A stretch of DNA of 64,000 nt from Eledone cirrhosa (GCA_964016885.1 OZ024743.1:99138001-99202000); one strand, 5' to 3'. Shown: positions 6,799 to 53,409, counted from the stretch's first letter. A program made the numbers and translations. The notes: generated from the sequence alone by a model not told the origin.

Positions 6799-6882
6799 CT
6801 AAAGAAATAAAAACAAGTTTTAAAATTATTCATGAAATAAAGTAATATTTAAGTTGAGAAAGTAGAACTTTTATAGATTTGG

Positions 6883-7065: not shown

Positions 7066-8200
7066 GCTGCTGAGACTCACGGGCGATCTCTACTAGCTTC
7101 AACGATGAATGGTTCAATTGTTTGATCAACATGGACAGGTCTGTTCATTGAATTAGCATATAAGTGGTTGAGTATTTTACAGATATATGTCACACATTCT
7201 CTGGGATGTTTGACATATATATAACATGGTTGACTCTTTCAATTACAGGTGAATCCATCTGATGGCTTTCTGAACAGTCTTCATCAACCTAATGTTACTC
7301 ACAGGGCCTGGTTTAGCCCAAAGTTATGGTAAAAAACATATTATAGACATATTTAATAACATGTAGACATACTATATACATGTTTACAGAGCTATGACAC
7401 ACTACATACATGTTTACAGGGCTAAGATATACTACATACATGTTTACAGGGCTAAGATAAACTACATACATGTTTACAGGGATAAGATATACTACAGACA
7501 TATTTACAGGGCTAAGATATACTACACACCATGTTTACAGGGCTAAGATATACTACACACCATGTTTACAGGGCTAAGATATACTACACACCATGTTTAC
7601 AGGGCTAAGATATACTACAGACATATTTACAGGGCTAAGATATACTACAGACATGTTTACAGGGCTAAGATATACTACAGACATATTTACAGGGCTAAGA
7701 TATACTACACACCATGTTTACAGGGCTAAGATATACTACAGACATATTTACAGGGCTAAGATATACTACATACATGTTTACAGGGCTAAGATATACTACA
7801 CACCATGTTTACAGGGCTAAGATATACTACATACATGTTTACAGGGCTAAGATATACTACATACATGTTTACAGGGCTAAGATATACTATATACATGTTT
7901 ACAGGGCTAAGATATACTACACACCATGTTTACAGGGCTAAGATATACTACATACATGTTTACAGGGCTAAGATATACTACACACCATGTTTACAGGGCT
8001 AAGATATACTACACACCATGTTTACAGGGCTAAGATATACTACGGACATATTTACAGGGATAAGATATACTATACACCATGTTTACAGGGCTAAGATATA
8101 CTACACACCATGTTTACAGGGCTAAGATATACTACACACCATGTTTACAGGGCTAAGATATACTACATACATGTTTACAGGGCGGGCTAAGATATACTAA

Positions 8201-9633
8201 CACAAAAGACTTATGGCGAAACTCTCTGCAATGGGTGTGAGGGATGATCGTTTTAACTGGTTGAAGTCCTTCATTCTCAGTCGGAGAGAGGTAGTCACGG
8301 TTCTAGGACAGCATTCTTCACCATATGAGATGTCATCTGGTGTACCACAGGGATATGTTCGTGGCATACATTAATGACACAGATGGCAACTTAAAGAATG
8401 CCACAGTACTGAAATATGCAGATGACATCAAGCTGTACCTTGAAATCAAAAGGACTGATCCTGAAATCTACAACTCTTTCCTACAATCAGACCTGGACAC
8501 AATGCAGCAATAGATCACAGACTGGCAACTGAAACTGGCTGTGGACAAGTGTACCACCATGCATTTTTTTGGGAAAAACCCAGCGTCCACAAACTCCCTC
8601 CACAACACTGATATCAAGAAGTCCTCTTGTGAACGTGACCTGGGCATTACTGTCAGCAGCGATTTGCATTGGACAAAGCAGGTCTCTAAGATTGTCAAGA
8701 AGGCCGAGGGTGTCTTAGCATCACTCAGCAAGACCTTTGTTAGCCGCTCTCCAGCCATCTATTTAAAGCTGTATATAGCTATGGTACGACCACACTTGGA
8801 ATTCGCATCATCAGTCTGAAACCCCTATCTTGCTCAGAACACTGACCTCCTGGAAACTGTTCAGAGACGTGCAACCAAGCACATACCCTCCATCAGACAC
8901 CTACCATACCCTGAACGCCTTGCTTCCCTAGGCATGGATTCATTGAAACTCGGACGTCTGGCAATGGACTTGGTAAACACCCTCAAAGTTATTAACCATC
9001 TCGCCAACAACAACACTGAGCACCTTTTTGATCTCCATGTGTCTAATACACGTGGACATGCCTACAAAATCAGAAAACAGCATATCTCCCATGACTTTCG
9101 GAAACATTTTTTCACGCTTAGAGTTGCTGAAGCATGGAACAAACTACCTGCATCAGTTGTTAGCTGCCGAGACACCGCATCCTTTAAAACCCTCATAGAA
9201 CAAACTACCTGCATCAGTTGTTAGCTGCCGAGACACTGCATCCTTTAAAACCCTCATGGAACAAACTACCTGCATCAGTTGTTAGCTGCCGAGACACCGC
9301 ATCCTTTAAAACCCTCATGGAACAAACTACCTGCATCAGTTGTTAGCTGCCGAGACACTGCATCCTTTAAAACCCTCATGGAACAAACTACCTGCGTCAG
9401 TTGTTAGCTGCTGAGACACTGCATCCTTTAAAACCCTCCTGCTTCCTGAAATTCGACAAAACTACACCTGATGTACCCCTTCCATATACATGCACACATG
9501 TGTATATCATGACTCATGCACTGTTCATTTTCCTGACATTTGTACATTACGCTATGTACTATACATACACTTTTGATGGGATGTCGTACACCTGAGCACT
9601 GTACACAATATTTTCATTATTATTATTATTATT
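8201..9633 (+). mobile_element. 5'-truncated dead CR1-clade LINE, copy 1 (RT C-terminal half, 3'UTR, (ATT)n tail)
   Basis: Translates HKRLMAKL...SGVPQG, then a frameshifting deletion, then FVAYIND...YADD...ERDLG...VRPHLEFASSV*NPY...LETVQRRATK...TRGH...FFTLRVAEAWNKLP. These are typical CR1 ORF2 motifs, with two in-frame stops. Confidence 0.93.
9133..9437 (+). repeat. 61-bp x5 tandem repeat inside the CR1 3' end, present in all five CR1 copies
   Basis: CATGGAACAAACTACCTGCATCAGTTGTTAGCTGCCGAGACAC(C/T)GCATCCTTTAAAACCCT repeats with period 61. Confidence 0.97.
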
Positions 9634-12600
9634 ACACACCATATTTACAGGGCTAAGATATACTACATACATATTTACAGGGCTAAGATATAATACAGAC
9701 ATATTTACAAGGCTAAGATATACTACATATATATTTACAGGGCTAAGATATACTACATACATATTTACAGGGCTAAGATATACTACAGACATATTTACAG
9801 GGCTAAGATATACTAGAGACATGTTTACAGGGCTAAGATATACTACAGACATGTTTACAGGGCTAAGATATACTACAGACATACTTACAGGGCTAAGATA
9901 TACTACAGACATATTTACAGGGCTAAGATATACTACAGGCATGTTTACAGGGCTAAGATATACTACAGACATGTTTACAGGGCTAAGATATACTACAGAC
10001 ATGTTTACAAGGCTATGATATACTACATACTTGTTTACAGGGCTAAGATATACTACAGACATACTTACAGGGCTAAGATATACTACATACCTATTTACAG
10101 GGCTAAGATATACTACATACATGTTTAGAGGGCTAAGATATACTACATACATATTTACAGGGCTATGATATACTACAGACATATTTACAGGGCTAAGATA
10201 TACTACAGTAATATTTACAGGGCTAAGATATACTACAGACATATGTACAGGGCTCAGATATACTACATACATCTTTACAAGGCTAAGTTATACTACAAAC
10301 ATATTTACAGGGCTAAGATATACTACAGACATATTTACAGGGCTAAGATATACTACATACATGTTTACAGGGCTATGATATACTACATACATATTTACAG
10401 GGCTGAGATATACTACATACATGGAGACAGGGTAAGATATACTACATACATGAATAGAGGGCTAAGATATACTACAGACATATTTACAGAGCTAAGATAT
10501 ACTACATATATGTTTACAAGGGTAAGATATACTACAGAGATATTTACAGGGCTAAGATATACTACATAGATATTTACAGAGCTAAGATATACTACATAGA
10601 TATTTACAGAGCTAAGATATACTACAGAGATATTTACAGAGCTAAGATATACTACATACATGTTTACAAGGCTAAGATATACTACAAACATATTTACAGG
10701 GCTAAGATATACTACAGAGATATTTACAGGGCTAAGATATACTACATACATATGTACAGGGCTATGATATACTACAGACATATTTACAGGGCTAAGATAT
10801 ACTACAGACATATTTACAGGGCTAAGATATACTACAGACATATATACAGGGCTAATATATACTACAGACATATTTACAGGACTAAGATATACTACAGACA
10901 TATTTACAGGGCTAGGATATACTACATACATGTTTACAGGGCTAAGATATACTACAGTAATATTTACAGGGCTAAGATATACTACAGACATATATACAGG
11001 GCTAATATATACTACAGACATATTTACAGGGCTAAGATATACTACATACATATTTACAGGGCTAAGATATACTACACACCATATTTACAGGGCTAAGAAA
11101 TACTACATACATGTTTAGAGGGCTAAGATATACTACAGACATATTTACAGGGCTAGGATATACTACATACATGTTTACAGGGCTAAGATATACTACAGAC
11201 ATATGTACAGGGCTCAGATATACTACATACATCTTTACAAGGCTAAGTTATACTACAAACATATTTAGAGGGCTAAGATATACTACAGACATATTTACAG
11301 GGCTAAGATATACTACAGACATATTTATAGGGCTAAGATATACTACATACATGTTTACAGGGCTATGATATACTACATACATATTTACAGGGCTGAGATA
11401 TACTACATACATGGATACAGGGCTAAGATATACTACATACATGAATGGCGGGCTAAGATATACTACAGACATATTTACAGAGCTAAGATATACTACATAC
11501 ATGTTTACAAGGCTAAGATATACTACAGAGATATTTACAGGGCTAAGATATACTACAGAGATATTTACAGAGCTAAGATATACTACATACATGTTTACAA
11601 GGCTAAGATATACTACAAACATACATATTTACAGGGCTAAGATATACTACAGAGATGTTTACAGGGCTAAGATATACTACATACATATTTATAGGGCTAT
11701 GATATACTACTGACATATTTACAGGGCTAAGATATAATACAGACATGTTTACAGGGCTAAGATATACTACATACATGTTTACAGGGCTAAGATATACTAC
11801 AGACATATTTACAGGGCTAAGATATAATACATACATATTTACAGGGCTAAGATATACTACATACATGTTTACAGGGCTAAGATATACTACAGAGATATTT
11901 ACAGGGCTAAGATATACTACAGACATATTTACAGGGCTAAGATATACTACAGACATGTTTAGAGGGCTAAGATATACTACATATATGTATAGAGGGCTAA
12001 GATATACTACAGACATATTTACAGACCTAAGATATACTACATACATGTTTACAAGGCTAAGTTATACTACAAACATATTTAGAGGGCTAAGATATACTAC
12101 AGACATGTTTAGAGGGATAAGATATACTACATACATGTATAGAGGGCTAAGATATACTACAGACATATTTACAGAGCTAAGATATACTAAATACATGTTT
12201 ACAAGGCTAAGATATACTAGAAACATATTTACAGCGCTAAGATATACTACAGAGATATTTACTGGGCTAAGATATACTACAGACATATTTACATGGCTAT
12301 GATATACTACAGACATATTTACAGGGCTAAGATATACTACATATATATTTACAGGGCTAAGATATAATACAGACATATCTACAGGGCTAAGATATACTAC
12401 ATACATGTATACAGGGCTACGATATACTACATACATGTTTACAGGGCTAAGATATACTACATACATGTTTATAGGGCTAAGATATACTACAGACATTTTT
12501 ACAGGGCTAAGATATACTACATACATGTATACAGGGCTATGATATACTACATACATGTTTAGAGGTCTAAGATATACTACATACATGTTTACAGGGCTAT

Positions 12601-15600
12601 GATATACTACATACATGTTTAGAGGGCTAAGATATACTACATACATGTTTACAGGGCTAAGATATACTACAAACATATTTACAGGGTAAGATATACTACA
12701 GACATATTTACAGGGCTAAGATATACTACATACATTTTTACAGGGCTAAGATATACTACAGACATATTTACAGGGCTAAGGTATACTACACACATGTTTA
12801 CAGGGCTAAGGTATACTACACACATATTTACAGGGCTAAGATATACTACAGACATATTTACAGGGCTAAGATATACTACGGACATGTTTACAGGGCTAAG
12901 ATATGCTACATACATATTTACAGGACTAAGATACACTACGGACATATTTACAGGGCTAAGATATACTACAGACATGTTTACAGTGCTAAGATATACTACA
13001 TACATATTTACAGGGCTATGATATACTACAGACATATTTACAGGGCTAAGATATACTACATACATATTTACAGGGCTAAGATATACTACATACATATTTA
13101 CAGGGCTAAGATATACTACATACATATTTACAGGACTAAGATATACTACACACCATATTTACAGGGCTAAGATATACTACATACATGTTTACAGGGCTAA
13201 GATATACTACAGACATATTTACAGGGCTAAGATATACTACATACATATTTACAGGGCTATGATATACTACAGCCATATTTACAGGGCTAAGATATACTAC
13301 ATACATATTTACAGGGCTAAGATATACTACATAAATGTTTACAGGGCTAAGATATACTACATACATATTTACAGAGCTATGATATACTACAGACATATTT
13401 ACAGGGCTGAGATATACTACAGACATATTTACAGGGCTAAGATATACTACATACATGTTTACAGGACTATGATATACTACATACATATTTACAGGGCTGA
13501 GATATACTACATACATGGAGACAGGGTAAGATATACTACATACATGAATAGAGGGCTAAGATATACTACAGACATATTTACAGAGCTAAGATATACTACA
13601 TATATGTTTACAAGGGTAAGATATACTACAGAGATATTTACAGGGCTAAGATATACTACATAGATATTTACAGAGCTAAGATATACTACAGAGATATTTA
13701 CAGAGCTAAGAAATACTACATACATGTTTAGAGGGCTAAGATATACTACAGACATATTTACAGGGCTAGGATATACTACATACATGTTTACAGGGATAAG
13801 ATATACTACAGACATATGTACAGGGCTCAGATATACTACATACATCTTTACAAGGCTAAGTTATACTACATACACATTTAGAGAGCTAAGATATACTACA
13901 GACATATTTACAGGGCTAAGATATACTACAGACATATTTATAGGGCTAAGATATACTACATACATGTTTACAGGGCTATGATATGCTACATACATATTTA
14001 CAGGGCTGAGATATACTACATACATGGATACAGGGCTAAGATATACTACATACATGAATAGAGGGCTAAGATATACTACAGACATATTTACAGAGCTAAG
14101 ATATACTACATACATGTTTACAAGGCTAAGATATACTACAGAGATATTTACAGGGCTAAGATATACTACAGAGATAGTTACAGAGCTAAGATATACTACA
14201 TACATGTTTACAAGGCTAAGATATACTACAAACATACATATTTACAGGGCTAAGATATACTACAGAGATGTTTACAGGGCTAAGATATACTACATACATA
14301 TTTATAGGGCTATGATATACTACAGCCATATTTACAGGGCTAAGATATACTACATACATATTTACAGGGCTAAGATATACTACATAAATGTTTACAGGGC
14401 TAAGATATACTACATACATATTTACAGAGCTATGATATACTACAGACATATTTACAGGGCTGAGATATACTACAGACATATTTACAGGGCTAAGATATAC
14501 TACATACATGTTTACAGGACTATGATATACTACATACATATTTACAGGGCTGAGATATACTACATACATGGAGACAGGGGAAGATATACTACATACATGA
14601 ATAGAGGGCTAAGATATACTACAGACATATTTACAGAGCTAAGATATACTACATATATGTTTACAAGGGTAAGATATACTACAGAGATATTTACAGGGCT
14701 AAGATATACTACATAGATATTTACAGAGCTAAGATATACTACAGAGATATTTACAGAGCTAAGAAATACTACATACATGTTTAGAGGGCTAAGATATACT
14801 ACAGACATATTTACAGGGCTAGGATATACTACATACATGTTTACAGGGATAAGATATACTACAGACATATGTACAGGGCTCAGATATACTACATACATCT
14901 TTACAAGGCTAAGTTATACTACATACACATTTAGAGAGCTAAGATATACTACAGACATATTTACAGGGCTAAGATATACTACAGACATATTTATAGGGCT
15001 AAGATATACTACATACATGTTTACAGGGCTATGATATGCTACATACATATTTACAGGGCTGAGATATACTACATACATGGATACAGGGCTAAGATATACT
15101 ACATACATGAATAGAGGGCTAAGATATACTACAGACATATTTACAGAGCTAAGATATACTACATACATGTTTACAAGGCTAAGATATACTACAGAGATAT
15201 TTACAGGGCTAAGATATACTACAGAGATAGTTACAGAGCTAAGATATACTACATACATGTTTACAAGGCTAAGATATACTACAAACATACATATTTACAG
15301 GGCTAAGATATACTACAGAGATGTTTACAGGGCTAAGATATACTACATACATATTTATAGGGCTATGATATACTACTGACATATTTACAGGGCTAAGATA
15401 TAATACAGACATGTTTACAGGGCTAAGATATACTACATACATGTTTACAGGGCTAAGATATACTACAGACATATTTACAGGGCTAAGATATAATACATAC
15501 ATATTTACAGGGCTAAGATATACTACATACATGTTTACAGGGCTAAGATATACTACAGACATATTTACAGGGCTAAGATATACTACAGACATATTTACAG

Positions 15601-16795
15601 GGCTAAGATATACTACAGACATGTTTAGAGGGCTAAGATATACTACATACATGTTTACAGGGCTAAGATATACTACAAACATATTTACAGGGTAAGATAT
15701 ACTACAGACATATTTACAGGGCTAAGATATACTACATACATTTTTACAGGGCTAAGATATACTACAGACATATTTACAGGGCTAAGGTATACTACACACA
15801 TGTTTACAGGGCTAAGGTATACTACACACATATTTACAGGGCTAAGATATACTACAGACATATTTACAGGGCTAAGATATACTACGGACATGTTTACAGG
15901 GCTAAGATATGCTACATACATATTTACAGGACTAAGATACACTACGGACATATTTACAGGGCTAAGATATACTACAGACATGTTTACAGTGCTAAGATAT
16001 ACTACAGACATATTTACAGGGCTAAGATATACTACAGATATATTTACATGGCTAAGATATACTACATACATGTTTAGAGGGCTAAGATATACTACAGACA
16101 TATTTACAGGGCTAAGATATACTACATACATATTTACAGGGCTATGATATACTACAGACATATTTACAGGTCTAAGATATACTACATACATATTTACAGG
16201 GCTAAGATATACTACACACCATATTTACAGAGCTAAGATATACTACAGACATATTTACAGGGCTAAGATATACTACAGACATATTTACAGGGCTAAGATA
16301 TACTACATACATGTTTACAGGGCTAAGGTATACTACACACATATTTGCAGGGCTAAGATATTCTACAGACATATTTACAGAGCTAAGATATACTACATAC
16401 ATATTTACAGGGCTAAGATATACTACGGACATATTTCAAGGGCTAAGATATACTACAGACATGTTTACAGTGCTAAGATATAATACAAACATATTTACAG
16501 GGCTAAGATATACTACAGACATATTTACAGGGCTAAGATGTACTACATACATATTTACAGGGCTAAGATATACTACACACCATGTTTACAGGGCTAAGAT
16601 ATACTACACACCATGTTTACAGGGCTAAGATATACTACGGACATATTTACAGGGATAAGATATACTACACACCATGTTTACAGGGCTAAGATATACTACA
16701 CACCATGTTTACAGGGCTAAGATATACTACACACCATGTTTACAGGGCTAAGATATACTACATACATGTTTACAGGGCGGGCTAAGATATACTAA

Positions 16796-18228
16796 CACAA
16801 AAGACTTATGGCGAAACTCTCTGCAATGGGTGTGAGGGATGATCGTTTTAACTGGTTGAAGTCCTTCATTCTCAGTCGGAGAGAGGTAGTCACGGTTCTA
16901 GGACAGCATTCTTCACCATATGAGATGTCATCTGGTGTACCACAGGGATATGTTCGTGGCATACATTAATGACACAGATGGCAACTTAAAGAATGCCACA
17001 GTACTGAAATATGCAGATGACATCAAGCTGTACCTTGAAATCAAAAGGACTGATCCTGAAATCTACAACTCTTTCCTACAATCAGACCTGGACACAATGC
17101 AGCAATAGATCACAGACTGGCAACTGAAACTGGCTGTGGACAAGTGTACCACCATGCATTTTTTTGGGAAAAACCAAGCGTCCACAAACTCCCTCCACAA
17201 CACTGATATCAAGAAGTCCTCTTGTGAACGTGACCTGGGCATTACTGTCAGCAGCGATTTGCATTGGACAAAGCAGGTCTCTAAGATTGTCAAGAAGGCC
17301 GAGGGTGTCTTAGCATCACTCAGCAAGACCTTTGTTAGCCGCTCTCCAGCCATCTATTTAAAGCTGTATATAGCTATGGTACGACCACACTTGGAATTCG
17401 CATCATCAGTCTGAAACCCCTATCTTGCTCAGAACACTGACCTCCTGGAAACTGTTCAGAGACGTGCAACCAAGCACATACCCTCCATCAGACACCTACC
17501 ATACCCTGAACGCCTTGCTTCCCTAGGCATGGATTCATTGAAACTCGGACGTCTGGCAATGGACTTGGTAAACACCCTCAAAGTTATTAACCATCTCGCC
17601 AACAACAACACTGAGCACCTTTTTGATCTCCATGTGTCTAATACACGTGGACATGCCTACAAAATCAGAAAACAGCATATCTCCCATGACTTTCGGAAAC
17701 ATTTTTTCACGCTTAGAGTTGCTGAAGCATGGAACAAACTACCTGCATCAGTTGTTAGCTGCCGAGACACCGCATCCTTTAAAACCCTCATAGAACAAAC
17801 TACCTGCATCAGTTGTTAGCTGCCGAGACACTGCATCCTTTAAAACCCTCATGGAACAAACTACCTGCATCAGTTGTTAGCTGCCGAGACACCGCATCCT
17901 TTAAAACCCTCATGGAACAAACTACCTGCATCAGTTGTTAGCTGCCGAGACACTGCATCCTTTAAAACCCTCATGGAACAAACTACCTGCGTCAGTTGTT
18001 AGCTGCTGAGACACTGCATCCTTTAAAACCCTCCTGCTTCCTGAAATTCGACAAAACTACACCTGATGTACCCCTTCCATACACATGCACACATGTGTAT
18101 ATCATGACTCATGCACTGTTCATTTTCCTGACATTTGTACATTACGCTATGTACTATACATACACTTTTGATGGGATGTCGTACACCTGAGCACTGTACA
18201 CAATATTTTCATTATTATTATTATTATT
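16796..18228 (+). mobile_element. CR1 fragment copy 2
   Basis: Same length, junctions and lesions as copy 1; offset +8595. Confidence 0.93.
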
Positions 18229-21200
18229 ACACACAATATTTACAGGGCTAAGATATACTACAGACATGTTTACAGGGCTATGATATACTACATACTTGTT
18301 TACAGGGCTAAGATATACTACAAACATACTTACAGGGCTAAGATATACTACATACCTATTTACAGGGCTAAGATATACTACATACATGTTTAGAGGGCTA
18401 AGATATACTACATACATATTTACAGGGCTATGATATACTACAGACATATTTACAGGGCTAAGATATACTACATACATATTTACAGGGCTAAGATATACTA
18501 CAGACATATTTACAGGGCTAAGATATACTACATACATATTTACAGGACTAAGATATACTACACACCATATTTACAGGGCTAAGATATACTACATACATGT
18601 TTACAGGGCTAAGATATACTACAGACATATTTACAGGGCTAGGATATACTACATACATGTTTACAGGGCTAAGATATACTACAGTAATATTTACAGGGCT
18701 AAGATATACTACAGACATATGTACAGGGCTCAGATATACTACATACATCTTTACAAGGCTAAGTTATACTACAAACATATTTACAGGGCTAAGATATACT
18801 ACAGACATATTTACAGGGCTAAGATATACTACATACATGTTTACAGGGCTATGATATACTACATACATATTTACAGGGCTGAGATATACTACATACATGG
18901 AGACAGGGTAAGATATACTACATACATGAATAGAGGGCTAAGATATACTACAGACATATTTACAGAGCTAAGATATACTACATATATGTTTACAAGGGTA
19001 AGATATACTACAGAGATATTTACAGGGCTAAGATATACTACATAGATATTTACAGAGCTAAGATATACTACATAGATATTTACAGAGCTAAGATATACTA
19101 CAGAGATATTTACAGAGCTAAGATATACTACATACATGTTTACAAGGCTAAGATATACTACAAACATATTTACAGGGCTAAGATATACTACAGAGATATT
19201 TACAGGGCTAAGATATACTACATACATATGTACAGGGCTATGATATACTACAGACATATTTACAGGGCTAAGATATACTACAGACATATTTACAGGGCTA
19301 AGATATACTACAGACATATATACAGGGCTAATATATACTACAGACATATTTACAGGGCTAAGATATACTACAGACATATTTACAGGGCTAGGATATACTA
19401 CATACATGTTTACAGGGCTAAGATATACTACAGTAATATTTACAGGGCTAAGATATACTACAGACATATATACAGGGCTAATATATACTACAGACATATT
19501 TACAGGGCTAAGATATACTACATACATATTTACAGGGCTAAGATATACTACACACCATATTTACAGGGCTAAGAAATACTACATACATGTTTAGAGGGCT
19601 AAGATATACTACAGACATATTTACAGGGCTAGGATATACTACATACATGTTTACAGGGCTAAGATATACTACAGACATATGTACAGGGCTCAGATATACT
19701 ACATACATCTTTACAAGGCTAAGTTATACTACAAACATATTTAGAGGGCTAAGATATACTACAGACATATTTACAGGGCTAAGATATACTACAGACATAT
19801 TTATAGGGCTAAGATATACTACATACATGTTTACAGGGCTATGATATACTACATACATATTTACAGGGCTGAGATATACTACATACATGGATACAGGGCT
19901 AAGATATACTACATACATGAATGGTGGGCTAAGATATACTACAGACATATTTACAGAGCTAAGATATACTACATACATGTTTACAAGGCTAAGATATACT
20001 ACAGAGATATTTACAGGGCTAAGATATACTACAGAGATATTTACAGAGCTAAGATATACTACATACATGTTTACAAGGATATACTACAAACATACATATT
20101 TACAGGGCTAAGATATACTACAGAGATGTTTACAGGGCTAAGATATACTACATACATATTTATAGGGCTATGATATACTACTGACATATTTACAGGGCTA
20201 AGATATAATACAGACATGTTTACAGGGCTAAGATATACTACATACATGTTTACAGGGCTAAGATATACTACAGACATATTTACAGGGCTAAGATATAATA
20301 CATACATATTTACAGGGCTAAGATATACTACATACATGTTTACAGGGCTAAGATATACTACAGAGATATTTACAGGGCTAAGATATACTACAGACATATT
20401 TACAGGGCTAAGATATACTACAGACATGTTTAGAGGGCTAAGATATACTACATATATGTATAGAGGGCTAAGATATACTACAGACATATTTACAGACCTA
20501 AGATATACTACATACATGTTTACAAGGCTAAGTTATACTACAAACATATTTAGAGGGCTAAGATATACTACAGACATGTTTAGAGGGATAAGATATACTA
20601 CATACATGTATAGAGGGCTAAGATATACTACAGACATATTTACAGAGCTAAGATATACTAAATACATGTTTACAAGGCTAAGATATACTAGAAACATATT
20701 TACAGCGCTAAGATATACTACAGAGATATTTACTGGGCTAAGATATACTACAGACATATTTACATGGCTATGATATACTACAGACATATTTACAGGGCTA
20801 AGATATACTACATATATATATTTACAGGGCTAAGATATAATACAGACATATTTACAGGGCTAAGATATACTACATACATGTATACAGGGCTACGATATAC
20901 TACATACATGTTTACAGGGCTAAGATATACTACATACATGTTTATAGGGCTAAGATATACTACAGACATTTTTACAGGGCTAAGATATACTACATACATG
21001 TATACAGGGCTATGATATACTACATACATGTTTAGAGGGCTAAGATATACTACATACATGTTTACAGGGCTATGATATACTACATACATGTTTAGAGGGC
21101 TAAGATATACTACATACATGTTTACAGGGCTAAGATATACTACAAACATATTTACAGGGTAAGATATACTACAGACATATTTACAGGGCTAAGATATACT

Positions 21201-22502
21201 ACATACATTTTTACAGGGCTAAGATATACTACAGACATATTTACAGGGCTAAGGTATACTACACACATGTTTACAGGGCTAAGGTATACTACACACATAT
21301 TTACAGGGCTAAGATATACTACAGACATATTTACAGGGCTAAGATATACTACGGACATGTTTACAGGGCTAAGATATGCTACATACATATTTACAGGACT
21401 AAGATACACTACGGACATATTTACAGGGCTAAGATATACTACAGACATGTTTACAGTGCTAAGATATACTACAGACATATTTACAGGGCTAAGATATACT
21501 ACAGATATATTTACATGGCTAAGATATACTACATACATGTTTAGAGGGCTAAGATATACTACAGACATATTTACAGGGCTAAGATATACTACATACATAT
21601 TTACAGGGCTATGATATACTACAGACATATTTACAGGGCTAAGATATACTACATACATATTTACAGGGCTAAGATATACTGCATAAATGTTTACAGGGCT
21701 AAGATATACTACATACATATTTACAGAGCTATGATATACTACAGACATATTTACAGGGCTGAGATATACTACATACATGGATACAGGGCTGAGATATACT
21801 ACATACATGTTTACAGGGCTAAGATATACTACATACATATTACAGAGCTAAGATATACTACACACCATATTTACAGAGCTAAGATATACTACAGACATAT
21901 TTACAGGGCTAAGATATACTACAGACATATTTACAGGGCTAAGATATACTACATACATGTTTACAGGGCTAAGGTATACTACACACATATTTGCAGGGCT
22001 AAGATATTCTACAGACATATTTACAGAGCTAAGATATACTACATACATATTTACAGGGCTAAGATATACTACGGACATATTTCAAGGGCTAAGATATACT
22101 ACAGACATGTTTACAGTGCTAAGATATACTACAAACATATTTACAGGGCTAAGATATACTACAGACATATTTACAGGGCTAAGATGTACTACATACATAT
22201 TTACAGGGCTAAGATATACTACACACCATGTTTACAGGGCTAAGATATACTACACACCATGTTTACAGGGCTAAGATATACTACGGACATATTTACAGGG
22301 ATAAGATATACTACACACCATGTTTACAGGGCTAAGATATACTACGGACATATTTACAGGGATAAGATATACTACACACCATGTTTACAGGGCTAAGATA
22401 TACTACACACCATGTTTACAGGGCTAAGATATACTACACACCATGTTTACAGGGCTAAGATATACTACATACATGTTTACAGGGCGGGCTAAGATATACT
22501 AA

Positions 22503-26900: not shown

Positions 26901-28025
26901 ATATACTACATACATTTTTACAGGGCTAAGATATACTACAGACATATTTACAGGGCTAAGGTATACTACACACATGTTTACAGGGCTAAGGTATACTACA
27001 CACATATTTACAGGGCTAAGATATACTACAGACATATTTACAGGGCTAAGATATACTACGGACATGTTTACAGGGCTAAGATATGCTACATACATATTTA
27101 CAGGACTAAGATACACTACGGACATATTTACAGGGCTAAGATATACTACAGACATGTTTACAGTGCTAAGATATACTACAGACATATTTACAGGGCTAAG
27201 ATATACTACAGATATATTTACATGGCTAAGATATACTACATACATGTTTAGAGGGCTAAGATATACTACAGACATATTTACAGGGCTAAGATATACTACA
27301 TACATATTTACAGGGCTATGATATACTACAGACATATTTACAGGGCTAAGATATACTACATACATATTTACAGGGCTAAGATATACTGCATAAATGTTTA
27401 CAGGGCTAAGATATACTACATACATATTTACAGAGCTATGATATACTACAGACATATTTACAGGGCTGAGATATACTACATACATGGATACAGGGCTGAG
27501 ATATACTACATACATGTTTACAGGGCTAAGATATACTACATACATATTACAGAGCTAAGATATACTACACACCATATTTACAGAGCTAAGATATACTACA
27601 GACATATTTACAGGGCTAAGATATACTACAGACATATTTACAGGGCTAAGATATACTACATACATGTTTACAGGGCTAAGGTATACTACACACATATTTG
27701 CAGGGCTAAGATATTCTACAGACATATTTACAGAGCTAAGATATACTACATACATATTTACAGGGCTAAGATATACTACGGACATATTTCAAGGGCTAAG
27801 ATATACTACAGACATGTTTACAGTGCTAAGATATACTACAAACATATTTACAGGGCTAAGATATACTACAGACATATTTACAGGGCTAAGATGTACTACA
27901 TACATATTTACAGGGCTAAGATATACTACACACCATGTTTACAGGGCTAAGATATACTACACACCATGTTTACAGGGCTAAGATATACTACATACATGTT
28001 TACAGGGCGGGCTAAGATATACTAA

Positions 28026-32400: not shown

Positions 32401-33522
32401 TACAGACATATTTACAGGGCTAAGATATACTACGGACATGTTTACAGGGCTAAGATATGCTACATACATATTTACAGGACTAAGATACACTACGGACATA
32501 TTTACAGGGCTAAGATATACTACAGACATGTTTACAGTGCTAAGATATACTACAGACATATTTACAGGGCTAAGATATACTACAGATATATTTACATGGC
32601 TAAGATATACTACATACATGTTTAGAGGGCTAAGATATACTACAGACATATTTACAGGGCTAAGATATACTACATACATATTTACAGGGCTATGATATAC
32701 TACAGACATATTTACAGGGCTAAGATATACTACATACATATTTACAGGGCTAAGATATACTGCATAAATGTTTACAGGGCTAAGATATACTACATACATA
32801 TTTACAGAGCTATGATATACTACAGACATATTTACAGGGCTGAGATATACTACATACATGGATACAGGGCTGAGATATACTACATACATGTTTACAGGGC
32901 TAAGATATACTACATACATATTACAGAGCTAAGATATACTACACACCATATTTACAGAGCTAAGATATACTACAGACATATTTACAGGGCTAAGATATAC
33001 TACAGACATATTTACAGGGCTAAGATATACTACATACATGTTTACAGGGCTAAGGTATACTACACACATATTTGCAGGGCTAAGATATTCTACAGACATA
33101 TTTACAGAGCTAAGATATACTACATACATATTTACAGGGCTAAGATATACTACGGACATATTTCAAGGGCTAAGATATACTACAGACATGTTTACAGTGC
33201 TAAGATATACTACAAACATATTTACAGGGCTAAGATATACTACAGACATATTTACAGGGCTAAGATGTACTACATACATATTTACAGGGCTAAGATATAC
33301 TACACACCATGTTTACAGGGCTAAGATATACTACACACCATGTTTACAGGGCTAAGATATACTACGGACATATTTACAGGGATAAGATATACTACACACC
33401 ATGTTTACAGGGCTAAGATATACTACACACCATGTTTACAGGGCTAAGATATACTACACACCATGTTTACAGGGCTAAGATATACTACATACATGTTTAC
33501 AGGGCGGGCTAAGATATACTAA

Positions 33523-34955
33523 CACAAAAGACTTATGGCGAAACTCTCTGCAATGGGTGTGAGGGATGATCGTTTTAACTGGTTGAAGTCCTTCATTCTC
33601 AGTCGGAGAGAGGTAGTCACGGTTCTAGGACAGCATTCTTCACCATATGAGATGTCATCTGGTGTACCACAGGGATATGTTCGTGGCATACATTAATGAC
33701 ACAGATGGCAACTTAAAGAATGCCACAGTACTGAAATATGCAGATGACATCAAGCTGTACCTTGAAATCAAAAGGACTGATCCTGAAATCTACAACTCTT
33801 TCCTACAATCAGACCTGGACACAATGCAGCAATAGATCACAGACTGGCAACTGAAACTGGCTGTGGACAAGTGTACCACCATGCATTTTTTTGGGAAAAA
33901 CCAAGCGTCCACAAACTCCCTCCACAACACTGATATCAAGAAGTCCTCTTGTGAACGTGACCTGGGCATTACTGTCAGCAGCGATTTGCATTGGACAAAG
34001 CAGGTCTCTAAGATTGTCAAGAAGGCCGAGGGTGTCTTAGCATCACTCAGCAAGACCTTTGTTAGCCGCTCTCCAGCCATCTATTTAAAGCTGTATATAG
34101 CTATGGTACGACCACACTTGGAATTCGCATCATCAGTCTGAAACCCCTATCTTGCTCAGAACACTGACCTCCTGGAAACTGTTCAGAGACGTGCAACCAA
34201 GCACATACCCTCCATCAGACACCTACCATACCCTGAACGCCTTGCTTCCCTAGGCATGGATTCATTGAAACTCGGACGTCTGGCAATGGACTTGGTAAAC
34301 ACCCTCAAAGTTATTAACCATCTCGCCAACAACAACACTGAGCACCTTTTTGATCTCCATGTGTCTAATACACGTGGACATGCCTACAAAATCAGAAAAC
34401 AGCATATCTCCCATGACTTTCGGAAACATTTTTTCACGCTTAGAGTTGCTGAAGCATGAAACAAACTACCTGCATCAGTTGTTAGCTGCCGAGACACCGC
34501 ATCCTTTAAAACCCTCATAGAACAAACTACCTGCATCAGTTGTTAGCTGCCGAGACACTGCATCCTTTAAAACCCTCATGGAACAAACTACCTGCATCAG
34601 TTGTTAGCTGCCGAGACACCGCATCCTTTAAAACCTTCATGGAACAAACTACCTGCATCAGTTGTTAGCTGCCGAGACACTGCATCCTTTAAAACCCTCA
34701 TGGAACAAACTACCTGCGTCAGTTGTTAGCTGCTGAGACACTGCATCCTTTAAAACCCTCCTGCTTCCTGAAATTCGACAAAACTACACCTGATGTACCC
34801 CTTCCATACACATGCACACATGTGTATATCATGACTCATGCACTGTTCATTTTCCTGACTTTTGTACATTACGCTATGTACTATACATACACTTTTGATG
34901 GGATGTCGTACACCTGAGCATTGTACACAATATTTTCATTATTATTATTATTATT
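33523..34955 (+). mobile_element. CR1 fragment copy 5
   Basis: Offset +5497 from copy 4; extra TGG>TGA stop at 34457-34459. Confidence 0.93.
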
Positions 34956-37900
34956 ACACACCATATTTACAGGGCTAAGATATACTACATACATATTTAC
35001 AGGGCTAAGATATAATACAGACATATTTACAAGGCTAAGATATACTACATGTATATTTACAGGGCTAAGATATACTACATACATATTTACAGGGCTAAGA
35101 TATACTACAGACATATTTACAGGGCTAAGATATACTAGAGACATGTTTACAGGGCTAAGATATACTACAGACATGTTTACAGGGCTAAGATATACTACAG
35201 ACATATTTACAGGGCTAAGATATACTACAGACATATTTACAGGGCTAAGAAATACTACAGACATGTTTACAGGGCTAAGATATACTACAGACATGTTTAC
35301 AGGGCTAAGATATACTACAGACATGTTTACAGGGCTATGATATACTACATACTTGTTTACAGGGCTAAGATATACTACAGACATACTTACAGGGCTAAGA
35401 TATACTACATACCTATTTACAGGGCTAAGATATACTACATACATGTTTAGAGGGCTAAGATATACTACATACATATTTACAGGGCTATGATATACTACAG
35501 ACATATTTACAGGGCTAAGATATACTACATACATATTTACAGGGCTAAGATATACTACAGACATATTTACAGGGCTAAGATATACTACATACATATTTAC
35601 AGGACTAAGATATACTACACACCATATTTACAGGGCTAAGATATACTACATACATGTTTACAGGGCTAAGATATACTACAGACATATTTACAGGGCTAGG
35701 ATATACTACATACATCTTTACAAGGCTAAGTTATACTACAAACATATTTACAGGGCTAAGATATACTACATACATGTTTACAGGACTATGATATACTACA
35801 TACATATTTACAGGGCTGAGATATACTACATACATGGAGACAGGGTAAGATATACTACATACATGAATAGAGGGCTAAGATATACTACAGACATATTTAC
35901 AGAGCTAAGATATACTACATATATGTTTACAAGGGTAAGATATACTACAGAGATATTTACAGGGCTAAGATATACTACATAGATATTTACAGAGCTAAGA
36001 TATACTACAGAGATATTTACAGAGCTAAGAAATACTACATACATGTTTAGAGGGCTAAGATATACTACAGACATATTTACAGGGCTAGGATATACTACAT
36101 ACATGTTTACAGGGCTAAGATATACTACAGACATATGTACAGGGCTCAGATATACTACATACATCTTTACAAGGCTAAGTTATACTACAAACACATTTAG
36201 AGAGCTAAGATATACTACAGACATATTTACAGGGCTAAGATATACTACAGACATATTTATAGGGCTAAGATATACTACATACATGTTTACAGGGCTATGA
36301 TATGCTACATACATATTTACAGGGCTGAGATATACTACATACATGGATACAGGGCTAAGATATACTACATACATGAATAGAGGGCTAAGATATACTACAG
36401 AGATATTTACAGGGCTAAGATATACTACATAGATATTTACAGAGCTAAGATATACTACATAGATATTTACAGAGCTAAGATATACTACAGAGATATTTAC
36501 AGAGCTAAGATATACTACATACATCTTTACAAGGCTAAGTTATACTACAAACACATTTAGAGAGCTAAGATATACTACAGACATATTTACAGGGCTAAGA
36601 TATACTACAGACATATTTATAGGGCTAAGATATACTACATACATGTTTACAGGGCTATGATATGCTACATACATATTTACAGGGCTGGGATATACTACAT
36701 ACATGGATACAGGGCTAAGATATACTACATACATGAATAGAGGGCTAAGATATACTACAGACATATTTACAGAGCTAAGATATACTACATACATGTTTAC
36801 AGGGCTAAGATATACTACAGAGATGTTTACAGGGCTAAGATATACTACATACATATTTATAGGGCTATGATATACTACTGACATATTTACAGGGCTAAGA
36901 TATAATACAGACATGTTTACAGGGCTAAGATATACTACATACATGTTTACAGGGCTAAGATATACTACAGACATATTTACAGGGCTAAGATATAATACAT
37001 ACATATTTACAGGGCTAAGATATACTACATACATGTTTACAGGGCTAAGATATACTACAGACATATTTACAGGGCTAAGATATACTACAGACATATTTAC
37101 AGGGCTAAGATATACTACAGATATGTTTAGAGGGTTAAGATATACTACATATATGTATAGAGGGCTAAGATATACTACAGATATATTTACAGACCTAAGA
37201 TATACTACATACATGTTTACAAGGCAAAGTTATACTACAAACATATTTAGAGGGCTAAGATATACTACAGACATGTTTAGAGGGATAAGATATACTACAT
37301 ACATGTATAGAGGGCTAAGATATACTACAGACATATTTACAGAGCTAAGATATACTAAATACATGTTTACAAGGCTAAGATATACTAGAAACATATTTAC
37401 AGGGCTAAGATATACTACAGAGATATTTACTGGGCTAAGATATACTACAGACATATTTACATGGCTATGATATACTACAGACATATTTACAGGGCTAAGA
37501 TATACTACATATATATTTACAGGGCTAAGATATAATACAGACATATTTACAGGGTTAAGATATACTACATACATGTATACAGGGCTACGATATACTACAT
37601 ACATGTTTACAGGGCTAAGATATACTACATACATGTTTATAGGGCTAAGATATACTACAGACATTTTTACAGGGCTAAGATATACTACATACATGTATAC
37701 AGGGCTATGATATACTACATACATGTTTAGAGGGCTAAGATATACTACATACATGTTTACAGGGCTATGATATACTACATACATGTTTAGAGGGCTAAGA
37801 TATACTACATACATGTTTACAGGGCTAAGATATACTACAAACATATTTACAGGGTAAGATATACTACAGACATATTTACAGGGCTAAGATATACTACATA

Positions 37901-40900
37901 CATTTTTACAGGGCTAAGATATACTACAGACATATTTACAGGGCTAAGGTATACTACACACATGTTTACAGGGCTAAGGTATACTACACACATATTTACA
38001 GGGCTAAGATATACTACAGACATATTTACAGGGCTAAGATATACTACGGACATGTTTACAGGGCTAAGATATGCTACATACATATTTACAGGACTAAGAT
38101 ACACTACGGACATATTTACAGGGCTAAGATATACTACAGACATGTTTACAGTGCTAAGATATACTACAGACATATTTACAGGGCTAAGATATACTACAGA
38201 TATATTTACATGGCTAAGATATACTACATACATGTTTAGAGGGCTAAGATATACTACATACATATTTACAGGGCTATGATATACTACATACATATTTACA
38301 GGGCTAAGATATACTACATAAATGTTTACAGGGCTAAGATATACTACATACATATTTACAGAGTTATGATATACTACAGACATATTTACAGGGCTGAGAT
38401 ATACTACATACATGGATACAGGGCTGAGATATACTACATACATGTTTACAGGGTTAAGATATACTACATACATATTACAGAGCTAAGATATACTACACAC
38501 CATATTTACAGAGCTAAGATATACTACAGACATATTTACAGGGCTAAGATATACTACAGACATATTTACAGGGCTAAGATATACTATATACATATTTACA
38601 GGGCTAAGGTATACTACACACATATTTGCAGGGCTAAGATATTCTACAGACATATTTACAGAGCTAAGATATACTACATACATATTTACAGGGCTAAGAT
38701 ATACTACGGACATATTTCAAGGGCTAAGATATACTACAGACATGTTTACAGTGCTAAGATATACTACAAACATATTTACAGGGCTAAGATATACTACAGA
38801 CATATTTACAGGGCTAAGATGTACTACATACATATTTACAGGGCTAAGATATACTACACACCATATTTACAGGGGTAAGGTTTACTACAGACATGTTTAG
38901 AGGGCTAAGATATACTACATACATGTTTACAAGACTAAGATATACTACAAACATATTTACAGGGCTAAGATATACTACAGACATATTTACAGGGATAAGA
39001 TATACTACAGATATATTTACATGGCTAAGATATACTACATACATGTTTAGAGGGCTAAGATATACTACAGACATATTTACAGGGCTAAGATATACTACAT
39101 ACATATTTACAGGGCTATGATATACTGCAGACATATTTACAGGGCTAAGATATACTACATACATTTTTACAGGGCTAAGATATACTACATAAATGTTTAC
39201 AGGGCTAAGATATACTACATACATATTTACAGAGCTATGATATACTACAGACATATTTACAGGGCTGAGATATACTACATACATGGATACAGGGCTGAGA
39301 TATACTACATACATGTTTACAGGGCTAAGATATACTACATACATATTACAGAGCTAAGATATACTACACACCATATTTACAGAGCTAAGATATACTACAG
39401 ACATATTTACAGGGCTAAGATATACTACAGACATATTTACAGGGCTAAGATATACTACATACATGTTTACAGGGCTAAGGTATACTACACACATATTTGC
39501 AGGGCTAAGATATTCTACAGACATATTTACAGAGCTAAGATATACTACATACATATTTACAGGGCTAAGATATACTACAGACATGTTTACAGTGCTAAGA
39601 TATACTACAAACATATTTACAGGGCTAAGATATACTACAGACATATTTACAGGGCTAAGATGTACTACATACATATTTACAGGGCTAAGATATACTACAC
39701 ACCATATTTACAGGGGTAAGGTTTACTACAGACATGTTTAGAGGGCTAAGATATACTACATACATGTTTACAAGACTAAGATATACTACAAACATATTTA
39801 CAGGGCTAAGATATACTACAGACATATTTACAGGGCTAAGATATACTACACACCATATTTACAGGGCTAAGATATACTACAGACATATTTACAGGGCTAT
39901 GATATACTACAGACATATTTACAGGGCTGAGATATACTACATACATGGATATAGGGCTAAGATATACTACAGACATGTTTACAGGGCTAAGATATGCTAC
40001 AGACATGTTTATAGGGCTAAGATATACTACATACATGTTTACAGGGCTAAGATATACTACATACATATTTACAGGGCTAAGATATACTACAGACATGTTT
40101 ATAGGGCTAAGATATGCTACGTACATATTTACAGGGCTAAGATATACTACGGACATATGTACAGGGCTAAGATATACTACCCACATATTTACAGGGCTAA
40201 GATATACCACATACATGTTAACAGGGCTAAGATATACTACATACATGTATACAGGGCTATGATATACTACAGACATATTTACAGGGCTGAGATATACTAC
40301 ATACATGGATACAGGGCTAAGATATACCACATACATGTTAACAGGGCTAAGATATACTACAGACATATTTACAGGGCTAAGATATACTACAGACATGTTT
40401 ACAGGGCTAAGATATACTACATACATATTTACAGGGCTCAGATATACTCCATACCATATTTACAGGGCTATGACATACTACATACATATTAACAGGTCTA
40501 AGATATACTACAGACATGTTTCCACGGCTAAGATATACTACAGACATATTTACAAGGCTAAGATATACTACATACATGTTTACAGGGCTGAGATATACTA
40601 CAGACATATTTACAGGGCTAAGATATAGTACATACATATTTACAGGGCCAAGATGTACTACACACCATGTTTACAGGGCTAAGATATACTACTTACATGT
40701 CTACAGGGCGAAGATATACTACAGGCATGTTTACATGTTTAAGATATACTACAGACATATTTACAGGGCTGAGATATACTACAGACATATTTACAGGGCT
40801 AAGATATACTACATACATGTTTACAGGGCTAATATATACTACAAACATATTTACAAGGCTAAGATATACTACAGACATGTTTACAGGGTAAGATATACTA

Positions 40901-43900
40901 CATACATATTTACAGGGCTAAGATATACTACATACATATTTACAGGGGTAAGATTTACTACAGACATGTTTGGAGGGCTAAGATATACTACATACATGTT
41001 TACAAGACTAAGATATACTACAAACATATTTACAGGGCTAAGATATACTACAGACATATTTACAGGGCTAAGATATACTACAGACATATTTACAGGGCTA
41101 AGATATACTACATACATATTTACAGGGCCATGATATACTACAGACATATTTACAGGGCTGAGATATACTACATACATGGATACAGGGCTAAGATATACTA
41201 CATACATATTTACAGGGCTAAGATATACTACAGACATATTTACAGGGCTAATATATACTACATACATGTTTACAGGGCTAAGATGTACTACAAACATATT
41301 TACAGGGCTAAGATATACTACATACATGTTTACAGGGCTAAGATGTACTACAAACATATTTACAGGGCTAAGATATACTACATACATGTTTACAGGGCTA
41401 AGATATACTACATACATATTTACAGGGCTAAGATATACTACAGACATGTTTACAGGGCTAAGATATGCTACATACATATTTACAGGGCTAAGATATACTA
41501 CGGACATATGTACAGGGCTAAGATATACTACCCACATATTTACAGGGCTATGATATACTACAGACATATTTACAGGGCTGAGATATACTACATACATATT
41601 TACAGGGCTAAGATATACTACAGACATGTTTACAGGGCTAAGATATACTACATACATGTTTACAGGGCTAAGATATACTACAGACATATTTACAGGGCTC
41701 AGATATACTCCATACCATATTTACAAGGCTATGACATACTACATACATATTAACAGGCCTAAGATATACTACAGACATGTTTACACGGCTAAGATATACT
41801 ACAGGCATGTTTACAGGGCTAGGATATACTACATACATATTTACAGGGCCACGATGTACTACACACCATGTTTACAGGGCTAAGATATACTACTTACATG
41901 TCTACAGGGCTAAGATATACTACAGGCATGTTTACATGTCTAAGATATACTACAGACATATTTACAGGGCTAAGATATACTACAGACATATTTACAAGGT
42001 TAAGATATACTACAGACATATTTACAAGGCTAAGATATACTACATACATGTTTACAGTGTTAATATATACTACAGACATATTTACAGGACATGTTTAAAC
42101 CACTAAGATACAATCCAAATATGTTTCCACCAATAAAAACTTACTACAGACAGGCTTACTAAGACATCGTACTTACACATTTACATCACTAAGACACAAT
42201 ACAGACACGTCTATACTGCTAAAGCATACTACAAATATTTTCATACTGTAAAAACGTGCTATAGACATGGTTACACTGCTGAGATATGTTACAAATATAC
42301 TAGAGACAGGCTCAGCATGTGTTGCAAATCTATGATTTTTACTTTATTTTCTCATGAACCAACAGCCTGTTGCTGCAGATAAGAGCTATGTTTCCAGTTT
42401 AAGGAATATTAATGATGAATTTAAAGGAGTTCAATAAAAATGAATTGTTGACTTTACTACAATATAGGAAATTTATTTATCAAATCAGTTGATTAATATT
42501 ATTTTCCTGTCCTTTTCTCAGATTATATTCATTATAAATTATAAATGATTTTTGTGTGTAAATTTAAAAACAAAATGAATATCTAAAAGCCACATAGCTT
42601 CCTTTAAACATCATATTTCTTATGAAAAATTTCAATGTTAAAATGTAAAATAAAACTACCCACAGTCTTTTATAACTGCCTTTTTAGTAAATATAGTTAT
42701 TTAATAAATTTCCAACTTTTATCTGGTGGGCGATTACATTTTTTTGTTCTTTCTAGAAGCCATTTAAAACATGTTTGGCTATGCATGTAAGTAAAGATTT
42801 GAAGGCATTAGCAGCGAAAGAGGTGAAAGTTATATGTATCATTCAAATAACATAGTTCTTGCATGTTTCACTTGTACATTCAATAAGCTTTTTAAATGTT
42901 TTATTCATTATATTTTATGTTACTTTAGAAGTAACATTTTGTAAAGTACAAAGAACTGAAGAAAATAACTTCTAAACTAAAACCAGCTTCTCGTTTTGGT
43001 AAACAGCACGGAAACCTTACCATTTCAAAGATAGTATTTTCCTCATAACAATACTGACATTTTCAAACCATATAAGACAGCAGATTATATAAGAGAATTA
43101 CTGTTTGTTTCACTGCTGATGATGATCAAAGAAGAATTCAAAAGATTCTATCAGATAAATGACTAAGCTTTTATAACAAATATTTTTTTTACTCAAAGTT
43201 TACAGATTCAAAGCAATACAAGCTTTTGAGTCTAATCTTAAAGAACAAAACAATGAAATCAATAATCAATTTTGAGAAAGGATAAAGATTTTATGACTGA
43301 ATAAATTTGAAACAATTTCGTGATATCAAAGTTGAATATTCTTTAAAGGATTAAGAACTTTGTTAGATGAATAATATTATCATTGTTTTGGAAGCTATTA
43401 TATTTGATAATTTTTACTTGATTATTTGTAACATTATCTTGTCTGTTCCACTCACTTTATTTCTCCATACAAAAATTAATACATTTAGTTTACATACAGT
43501 TGTACTAAATAAATTCAAATTTAATTTAATTCAAAAATTGTTATTCATTTATAGAATCTGGATTCCTTTCTGGTTAACTGTATTTTATGAAATAATCTAA
43601 TAACGTTTGGAAGATATATTCTAGAGCAATAAAATTCTTCTATTCTGTTAAGGTGGAGAAGATGTAAATTTAAAATATGATATTGGAAGAGAAGTAATCC
43701 AGGATTACATTACTGCAAGCAATTTTATGTTATCAGTTGCAATATTATAAAACTAGTTATGCCTCAATACATGGATATATGCCAGAAAAAATGGAAGGTA
43801 GCTGGAGATTATGTGAGAGACACAGATAGAGCTAATGAGGGGAAGAAAAAAACTTACTATTAGTAAAAGGAATGATAGGTGAGAAACACATCACATAAGA

Positions 43901-44464: not shown

Positions 44465-44501
<37 letters not shown>

Positions 44502-51748: not shown

Positions 51749-51757
51749 TATATATAT

Positions 51758-53406: not shown

Positions 53407-53409
<3 letters not shown>

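What the first reader, a model, noticed from the sequence alone, without database searches (positions are those of the whole stretch)
7365..42090. Three-tier macrosatellite: a dead CR1 LINE amplified five-fold as a passenger of a 30-bp minisatellite
Seen: five 1433-bp CR1 fragments share the same 5' truncation, junctions, inactivating lesions and 61-bp x5 repeat. They are spaced 8595, 5707, 5523 and 5497 bp apart, and the order of variant monomers between them also repeats. Inference: one retrotransposition, then tandem amplification of a LINE-plus-satellite unit by unequal exchange or similar, so the element multiplied without transposing. Known: TE-containing higher-order satellites occur at centromeres; a 35-kb one inside an apparent host-gene intron is unusual.
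Basis: partly seen in the sequence, partly recalled or inferred. Interest (0 to 1): 0.75.

Follow-up and report, generated by a model that had tools for sequence, protein, structure and literature searches.

The report
Dead LINE copied inside intronic minisatellite
A 35-kb block of 30-letter repeats fills most of one intron of an octopus TULP4 gene and carries five near-identical copies of one broken jumping-gene fragment, likely copied as a passenger when the repeat block duplicated itself; it is a very clean case of a known process that also shows up in another intron of the same gene.

Summary
Five 1433-bp CR1-like 3' fragments start at 8198, 16793, 22500, 28023 and 33520. They differ at 0-6 sites and share the 5' junction, a 17-bp deletion, two stops, the 61-bp x5 repeat and 38 substitutions against dispersed copies. 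The 911 monomers repeat in the same order between LINEs. All four unit seams switch template inside one 30-bp stretch shared by two monomers. The host is TULP4 (minus strand, GT-AG intron 6799-45677, 89% array), and the monomer's core occurs only here (448 of 448 matches). Best reading: one insertion, long decay, then stepwise tandem duplication of a ~5.55-kb LINE+minisatellite unit by exchange between monomers. Contig depth hints weakly at several copies; spanning reads were not testable. Another TULP4 intron has a 40-bp array with three identical LINE pieces, C18 has six tandem copies of this LINE family, and the scan found the same thing before on other DNA of this genome (e1-10310514). Papers describe it in centromeres and in human macrosatellites. 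Six arbitrary 100-kb blocks showed no such case.

The parts
5624..6798 (-). TULP4 coding exon (aa ~625-1016), downstream of the array
   Evidence: 97% identical to the O. sinensis tubby-related protein 4-like protein; AG acceptor ends at 6799
45678..45924 (-). TULP4 coding exon (aa ~543-624), upstream of the array
   Evidence: tblastn 96%; GT donor at 45677; the Trp codon is split T|GG across the intron
6799..45677 (-). 38.9-kb GT-AG intron; 89% of it is the array
7365..8199 (.). S0: first 27 monomers; its last 8 monomers (from 7964) supply the left end of the repeated unit
8200..9634 (+). LINE copy 1: 5'-truncated CR1-like ORF2 3' part, 61-bp x5 repeat (9133-9438), 3' UTR, (ATT)6 tail; antisense to TULP4
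9635..16794 (.). S1: 237 monomers, with an extra ~100-monomer stretch that includes a 35-monomer internal duplication; seam at 16559
16795..18229 (+). LINE copy 2
18230..22501 (.). S2: 141 monomers; seam at 22205
22502..23936 (+). LINE copy 3
23937..28024 (.). S3: 135 monomers; seam at 27912
28025..29459 (+). LINE copy 4 (identical to copy 3)
29460..33521 (.). S4: 134 monomers; seam at 33286
33522..34956 (+). LINE copy 5 (4 private substitutions, one extra stop at 34457)
34957..42088 (.). S5: 237 monomers; the right breakpoint of the unit lies at ~38835-38864; the distal part is not in the repeated unit
42095..42310 (.). degenerate monomer-like flank, likely the older sequence from which the minisatellite grew
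   Evidence: local alignment score 130 vs shuffle mean 18.5; 0 of 200 shuffles reach it; three control flanks are not above their shuffles

Best explanation
A locus-specific 30-bp minisatellite in a TULP4 intron holds five copies of one broken CR1-like LINE fragment, which likely inserted once and was likely multiplied later as a passenger by stepwise unequal exchange between repeat monomers. Steps: (1) Inferred: the minisatellite grew in place from older local sequence. (2) Shown by junctions: a 5'-truncated LINE sits inside one 31-bp monomer variant, with at most a 2-bp TA duplication. (3) Inferred order: it decayed as a single copy (38 shared substitutions, a 17-bp deletion, two stops, the 61-bp expansion). 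(4) Shown seam, inferred process: exchange inside a 30-bp identical stretch shared by a monomer left of the LINE (7959-7988) and one ~5.55 kb to its right duplicated the interval. (5) Inferred: further misaligned exchanges between the now kilobase-long repeats gave five copies, and monomer-scale gains and losses edited each unit. It is probably neutral and is spliced out with the intron.
For: The 5' junction and length are identical in 5 of 5 copies. In 38 of 1141 ungapped columns all five copies share a base that differs from at least 4 of 5 dispersed copies; the dispersed copies have 13-25 private changes each; the five differ from each other by only 0-6. All five share stops at copy-1 positions 8511 and 8817 and the frameshifting 17-bp deletion, and the fragment starts inside the RT domain, so it cannot encode its own mobility. 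All 4 seams match S5 perfectly for 75-245 bp on the left and S0 for 80-109 bp on the right, with 30 bp shared by both. The predicted unit, 33286-38839 = 5554 bp, fits the 5497-5707 spacings. Variants are nested: L2-L5 share a derived base, L2-L4 share an 11-monomer deletion, and L3/L4 share two substitutions. The monomer core occurs 448 times in the genome and 448 times in the window. A private LINE 31-mer occurs 5 times genome-wide, all here.
Against: No spanning long reads could be laid, and the 3' junction test gave no cover. Contig depth over the private LINE stretch is 29-37 in three runs of one sample. Against longer contigs at 11-17 that is only 2-3-fold, not 5-fold, so the other homolog may have fewer copies or the count may be off; the tool warns that this depth is no copy number. 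Sequence alone cannot separate unequal crossover from repair by template switching. The LINE variants root the copies at L1, while the satellite is most diverged in S5 (1.0% S1-S5, 0.45% S1-S2), so the history includes recombinant units and cannot be drawn as one tree.
Confidence: 0.72

Rival explanations
1. Same single insertion, but amplification by a replication-based route (break-induced replication, template switching, or excision and rolling-circle reinsertion of a 5.55-kb circle) rather than by crossover.
For: One seam with only 30 bp of perfect identity is repeated in all four units; S2-S4 differ by only 1-2 substitutions.
Against: A single rolling-circle event would give uniform units. 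The nested shared variants (L2-L5, L2-L4, L3/L4) need at least three successive events.
Confidence: 0.17
2. Assembly artefact: the true allele has fewer units, for example two haplotypes joined or middle units over-expanded.
For: L3 = L4, and S2-S4 are almost identical. Depth is only 2-3 times the 11-17 level of longer contigs.
Against: The window has no N. Units differ by shared substitutions and whole-monomer indels in a nested pattern, not by private homopolymer errors. At least four distinct LINE sequences exist, more than two alleles can give. Depth over the private stretch is above every baseline estimate.
Confidence: 0.08
3. The array is a functional chromosomal element (centromere-like or regulatory) kept by selection.
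For: TE-bearing satellite arrays occur at centromeres. A human intronic 30-bp VNTR is associated with expression changes (abstract).
Against: The array is only 35 kb, single-locus and lies between intact coding exons. Neighbouring introns hold unrelated 22-, 55- and 40-bp arrays, which suggests turnover.
Confidence: 0.02
4. Five independent insertions of an active LINE that targets this monomer.
For: The family is abundant: 4154 candidates, 40 scored.
Against: Identical truncation point, identical flanks and 38 shared private changes; the best dispersed copy is only 93% identical.
Confidence: 0.01

Closest known systems
Transposons copied by host recombination inside satellite arrays (Anoplius: five Gypsy copies with identical TSDs; Porphyrio: 11 LINEs; bioRxiv 10.64898/2026.09.17.752431, section 9 read)
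   Same: One integration followed by copying; same strand; identical flanks.
   Different: Those arrays are centromeric satellites. This is a 35-kb single-locus minisatellite inside a gene, and the passenger is a decayed fragment.
Human large tandem arrays (Warburton 2008, PMC2588610, passages read): locus-specific VNTRs of 10-53 kb with higher-order structure, TE-containing megasatellites, the ~6-kb Acro unit (LINE/LTR pieces plus satellite blocks), arrays within introns
   Same: Size, higher-order VNTR structure, a TE-plus-satellite unit of 5-6 kb, unequal crossing over invoked.
   Different: The passages seen do not show a LINE multiplied inside an intronic VNTR with a resolvable seam.
Human composite repeats/macrosatellites (Hoyt et al., bioRxiv 10.1101/2021.07.12.451456, passages read)
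   Same: Tandem units of TE plus satellite, attributed to unequal crossing over.
   Different: They are defined by three or more component repeats, and some are dispersed over chromosomes. This has two main components, five copies and one locus.
TRACT, the 30-bp intronic VNTR of CACNA1C (PMC13131567, abstract only)
   Same: 30-bp monomer, intronic, up to 30+ kb, variant monomers.
   Different: The abstract mentions no TE passenger; no sequence relation was tested or is implied.
CR1-clade LINEs (CR1 is listed among recently active O. vulgaris LINEs, PMC13282606, Table 1 passage)
   Same: Endonuclease + RT in fuller family members, short tandem tail, 5' truncation.
   Different: These five copies are dead fragments multiplied by the host, not by retrotransposition.

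Membership tests
CR1-clade LINE | ORF2 with APE-type endonuclease and RT | tested here: met
   In dispersed family members 93% identical to the fragment: Exo_endo_phos(_2) in L045 and RVT_1 in L009. The window copies keep only the 3' part of RT and the C-terminus.
CR1-clade LINE | 3' end in a short tandem repeat, 5' truncation, little or no target-site duplication (definition recalled) | tested here: met
   (ATT)n tail, also in dispersed copies; at most a 2-bp TA duplication
CR1-clade LINE | RT groups with CR1 rather than L2, Crack, Daphne or Zenon in a phylogeny | tested here: inconclusive
   The named best hits are stork, crane and turtle RT proteins (33-39% over most of 456 aa); that these are CR1 is recalled. 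RTE-like and Tx1-like octopus RTs score 44-50 bits vs 231-310. No tree with labelled clade references was built.
Locus-specific minisatellite/VNTR | 10-100-bp monomer confined to one locus | tested here: met
   448 of 448 exact 19-mer matches and 89 of 89 32-mer matches lie in the window; diverged copies elsewhere were not searched
Locus-specific minisatellite/VNTR | length polymorphism among individuals | not testable with these tools
   Only contigs of one sample and reduced-representation reads were available
TE-containing higher-order repeat/macrosatellite | multi-kb unit repeated head to tail, units more alike than their monomers, shared TE junctions | tested here: met
   Units differ by 0.02-1.0% per aligned base, while monomers differ by ~7% from the commonest monomer; junctions are shared
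Human-type composite repeat (Hoyt) | unit of three or more repeated sequence classes | tested here: inconclusive
   LINE + 30-bp minisatellite; a third only if the LINE-internal 61-bp array is counted
Centromeric satellite | CENP-A chromatin | not testable with these tools
   no ChIP data
Centromeric satellite | large array outside genes, usually a family shared across chromosomes | tested here: not met
   35 kb, one locus, inside an intron between intact exons

The most novel reading that the evidence does not exclude
In octopus genomes, private intronic minisatellites act as a common, transposition-free copier of dead LINE pieces and a main inflator of introns. Part of the apparent 'very recent' TE copies would then be passengers, and this TULP4 array would be a live copy-number polymorphism (for example five units on one homolog and one on the other) whose monomer strings record each exchange.
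Probability: 0.3. Interest if true: 0.55.

Novelty: new member of a known kind. Interest (0 to 1): 0.3.

Why it matters
It is a rare fully readable record of how a minisatellite array grows: the original seam is mapped to 30 bp and later events are ordered by shared variants. It also warns that near-identical TE copies need not mean recent transposition. If the pattern is genome-wide, it bears on octopus intron size and on TE-age estimates. As a single locus it is ordinary neutral repeat turnover.

Tried and rejected
Laying contigs on the LINE 3' junction to see three haplotypes: the junction bins had no cover and family copies swamped the rest, so the test was void. Laying on the LINE body: the variant sites at 8387 and 8581 were not listed among other letters, and the RAD run X21 gave 80 mostly partial reads, so no verdict on other individuals. 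No RNA holder was listed for 4100-7330; this is no evidence on expression. Coding array: stop-free frames reach 279-296 codons on both strands, as expected of a 30-bp monomer with one open frame per strand, and 29/31-bp variants shift frame; rejected. Genome-wide frequency: six arbitrary 100-kb blocks (C1, C2, C3, C5, C7, C15) showed 0 of 6 with a repeated TE passenger inside a minisatellite. The C7 'inserts' were first counted and then dropped, because the 1380-bp piece aligns to the satellite itself (the other two pieces look alike by eye). Two holes in an AT-rich array of L093 were not examined. C5 has a ~10.5-kb tandem duplication with a LINE 3' end and C2 has two tandem Tx1-like copies; these are related but not the same thing. 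The masked-BLAST screen missed the known 40-bp case, so one search was added. The 61-bp x5 repeat as a unique mark: rejected, since the same unit is tandem at five other loci. Dating: not attempted in years, because copy differences may be allelic. Literature: eight searches. One search found 0 papers; none of the listings showed a paper on LINE passengers in cephalopod minisatellites. The library lacks most subscription papers, and supplements were not read.

Full report
Observation. The finding is real at the stated coordinates. BLAST of the first fragment finds five ungapped 1433-bp copies at 8198, 16793, 22500, 28023 and 33520 (spacings 8595, 5707, 5523, 5497), with 8 variable sites, pairwise distances of 0-6 and L3 = L4. 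TRF finds the 30-bp array on both sides and the 61-bp x5 repeat inside the fragment. Splitting the array gives 911 monomers of 168 kinds in six segments, S0-S5, of 27, 237, 141, 135, 134 and 237 monomers. S2, S3 and S4 differ by 1-2 substitutions and by blocks of 2-6 whole monomers. S1-S2, S2-S5 and S1-S5 differ by 0.45, 0.71 and 1.0% per aligned base, against ~7% between a monomer and the commonest monomer. Shuffling the monomer order removes the match. A middle tier exists: a 35-monomer duplication in S1 and a 28-monomer one in S5.

Setting. The exon at 5624-6798 (minus strand) is 97% identical to the Octopus sinensis tubby-related protein 4-like protein, which has the WDR35/TULP4 propeller and Tub domains. 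The previous exon lies at 45678-45924. The intron has canonical GT-AG ends and a Trp codon split across it. The array fills 89% of this 38.9-kb intron, and the LINEs are antisense to the gene. A 19-base core of the monomer occurs 448 times in the 3.0-Gb assembly and 448 times in the window, so this is a locus-specific minisatellite. The right flank (42095-42310) is degenerate monomer-like sequence (score 130, shuffle mean 18.5, 0 of 200 shuffles reach it; three controls are not above their shuffles). The left flank at 6880-7050 is weakly similar (29 vs 17.6) and 7050-7350 is not. I infer that the monomer arose in place.

The LINE. The family is dispersed: 40 scored matches of 4154 candidates, the best outside the window at 93%. 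Fuller members carry endonuclease and RT domains, and their named best hits are bird and turtle RT proteins. That these are CR1 is my recall, and no clade tree was built, so I say 'CR1-like'. Alignment to five dispersed copies places the 5' end at 8200, inside RT, and the 3' end in an (ATT)6 tail. Removing the insert restores a 31-bp monomer variant with at most a 2-bp TA duplication. All five copies share a 17-bp frameshifting deletion, two stops, and 38 substitutions in 1141 ungapped columns that differ from at least 4 of the 5 dispersed copies; those copies have 13-25 private changes each. So most of the decay came before the copying. A private 31-mer occurs five times in the genome, all here. 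The 61-bp unit is the end of ORF2; it is single in the five aligned dispersed copies but tandem (3-18 copies) at five other loci, so it is a recurrent weak spot of the family.

Mechanism. Each of the four internal segments ends with the same seam. To the left, sequence matches S5 up to ~38839 (75-245 bp perfect). To the right, it matches S0 from 7964 (80-109 bp perfect). The two templates share exactly 30 bp there. The implied unit, 5554 bp, fits the three short spacings, and S1 is longer because of ~100 extra monomers. Variants are nested: L2-L5 share a derived base, L2-L4 share an 11-monomer deletion behind the tail, and L3/L4 share two substitutions. Shown: single origin of the insert, single origin of the seam, several successive edits. 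Inferred: the first duplication used monomer homology, and later ones used misalignment of whole units. Unequal crossover and replication-based repair cannot be told apart from one allele. LINE and satellite variants point to different roots, as expected if units are recombinant.

Artefact? The window has no N, and four distinct LINE sequences with nested shared variants are hard to get from two alleles or from read errors. A 59-base contig over the private LINE stretch has depth 35, 37 and 29 in three runs of one sample. Longer contigs of apparently single loci have 11-17, and some have 5-8. That is above one copy on any baseline, but 2-3-fold rather than 5-fold on the higher one, which would fit five copies on one homolog and few on the other. 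The tool warns that this depth is no copy number, and the sample may be the source of the assembly, so this is a weak hint only. The junction test gave no cover.

How unusual? The next intron downstream holds 22-bp and 55-bp arrays, and the one after it holds an 18.8-kb 40-bp array. That array carries three identical ~680-bp pieces of a Tx1/L1-like LINE, with 551-623 bp and over 1 kb of identical sequence to the left and right of a point at the insert's start. On C18, six same-strand copies of the CR1-like family share one 3' junction and two 5' junctions within 27 kb. An unreviewed note of this scan reports seven LINE copies in a 62-bp array in a kinase intron of this genome (e1-10310514; not checked here). 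Against generality, 0 of 6 arbitrary 100-kb blocks showed such a case.

Known parallels. A 2026 centromere atlas describes five Gypsy copies with identical TSDs and 11 LINEs in satellite arrays as single integrations copied by host recombination (section 9 read). Human locus-specific VNTRs of 10-53 kb with higher-order structure, TE-bearing megasatellites and intronic arrays are listed by Warburton 2008 (passages). Composites attributed to unequal crossing over are in Hoyt et al. (passages). TRACT is a 3-30+ kb intronic 30-bp VNTR (abstract). For cephalopods I saw passages of PMC13282606, PMC9068888 and PMC10294476; the first two have no occurrence of 'satellite' in their main text. Eight searches listed no paper on this in cephalopods; supplements were not read.

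Verdict. A real, unusually legible new member of a known kind: a TE passenger in a tandemly amplified repeat unit, here in a gene intron. It is probably neutral. Interest 0.3. The bolder reading, a genome-wide passenger route to TE copies and intron growth with live polymorphism at TULP4, is open at about 0.3.

Noticed in passing
L039:3070-10000, L026:1-10000, L025:1-1891; inserts at L026:4290-4970, L026:5920-6605, L025:555-1240: An 18.8-kb 40-bp array in another TULP4 intron carries three identical ~680-bp internal pieces of a Tx1/L1-like LINE (99% identical to a long-ORF copy in L074), spaced 1633 and 4633 bp: the same passenger effect.
   Followed up: partly
L052-L054 (G000:C18:33,383,000-33,409,500): Six same-strand copies of the same CR1-like family with one shared 3' junction and two 5' junction classes (4+2), interleaved with (ATAGT)n: a tandem amplification.
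   Followed up: partly
L046:5298-6338, L047:3705-3891, L048:4463-4882, L049:4442-6273, L051:4906-6007: The 61-bp end of ORF2 is tandemly expanded 3-18 times at five other loci: a recurrent LINE-derived minisatellite.
   Followed up: partly
window 1-2897 (continuing in L012), L023/L011, L044-L042: Further multi-kb arrays in and beside TULP4: 22-bp (4.8 kb), 55-bp (6.7 kb), and 44-bp (over 23 kb, beyond the last coding exon); no inserts found in them.
   Followed up: partly
L097-L106 (G000:C7:30.0-30.1 Mb): 93% of this arbitrary block is an AT-rich 276-277-bp satellite with long perfect internal duplications; a candidate centromeric satellite.
   Followed up: no
L073:7784-10000, L074:1-6865: Two tandem, ~99% identical Tx1/L1-like LINEs 5.6 kb apart with long open frames (1021 aa), likely a young family.
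   Followed up: no
window 51700-55300 and 62300-64000: Three RTE-like LINE copies (label from recalled motifs); the first two lie in opposite orientation within ~3.6 kb of a TULP4 intron and could pair as RNA.
   Followed up: no
window 8182-8190 and the same place in all five units: A 4-base GGGC duplication in the monomer just before the LINE 5' junction, shared by all copies.
   Followed up: no
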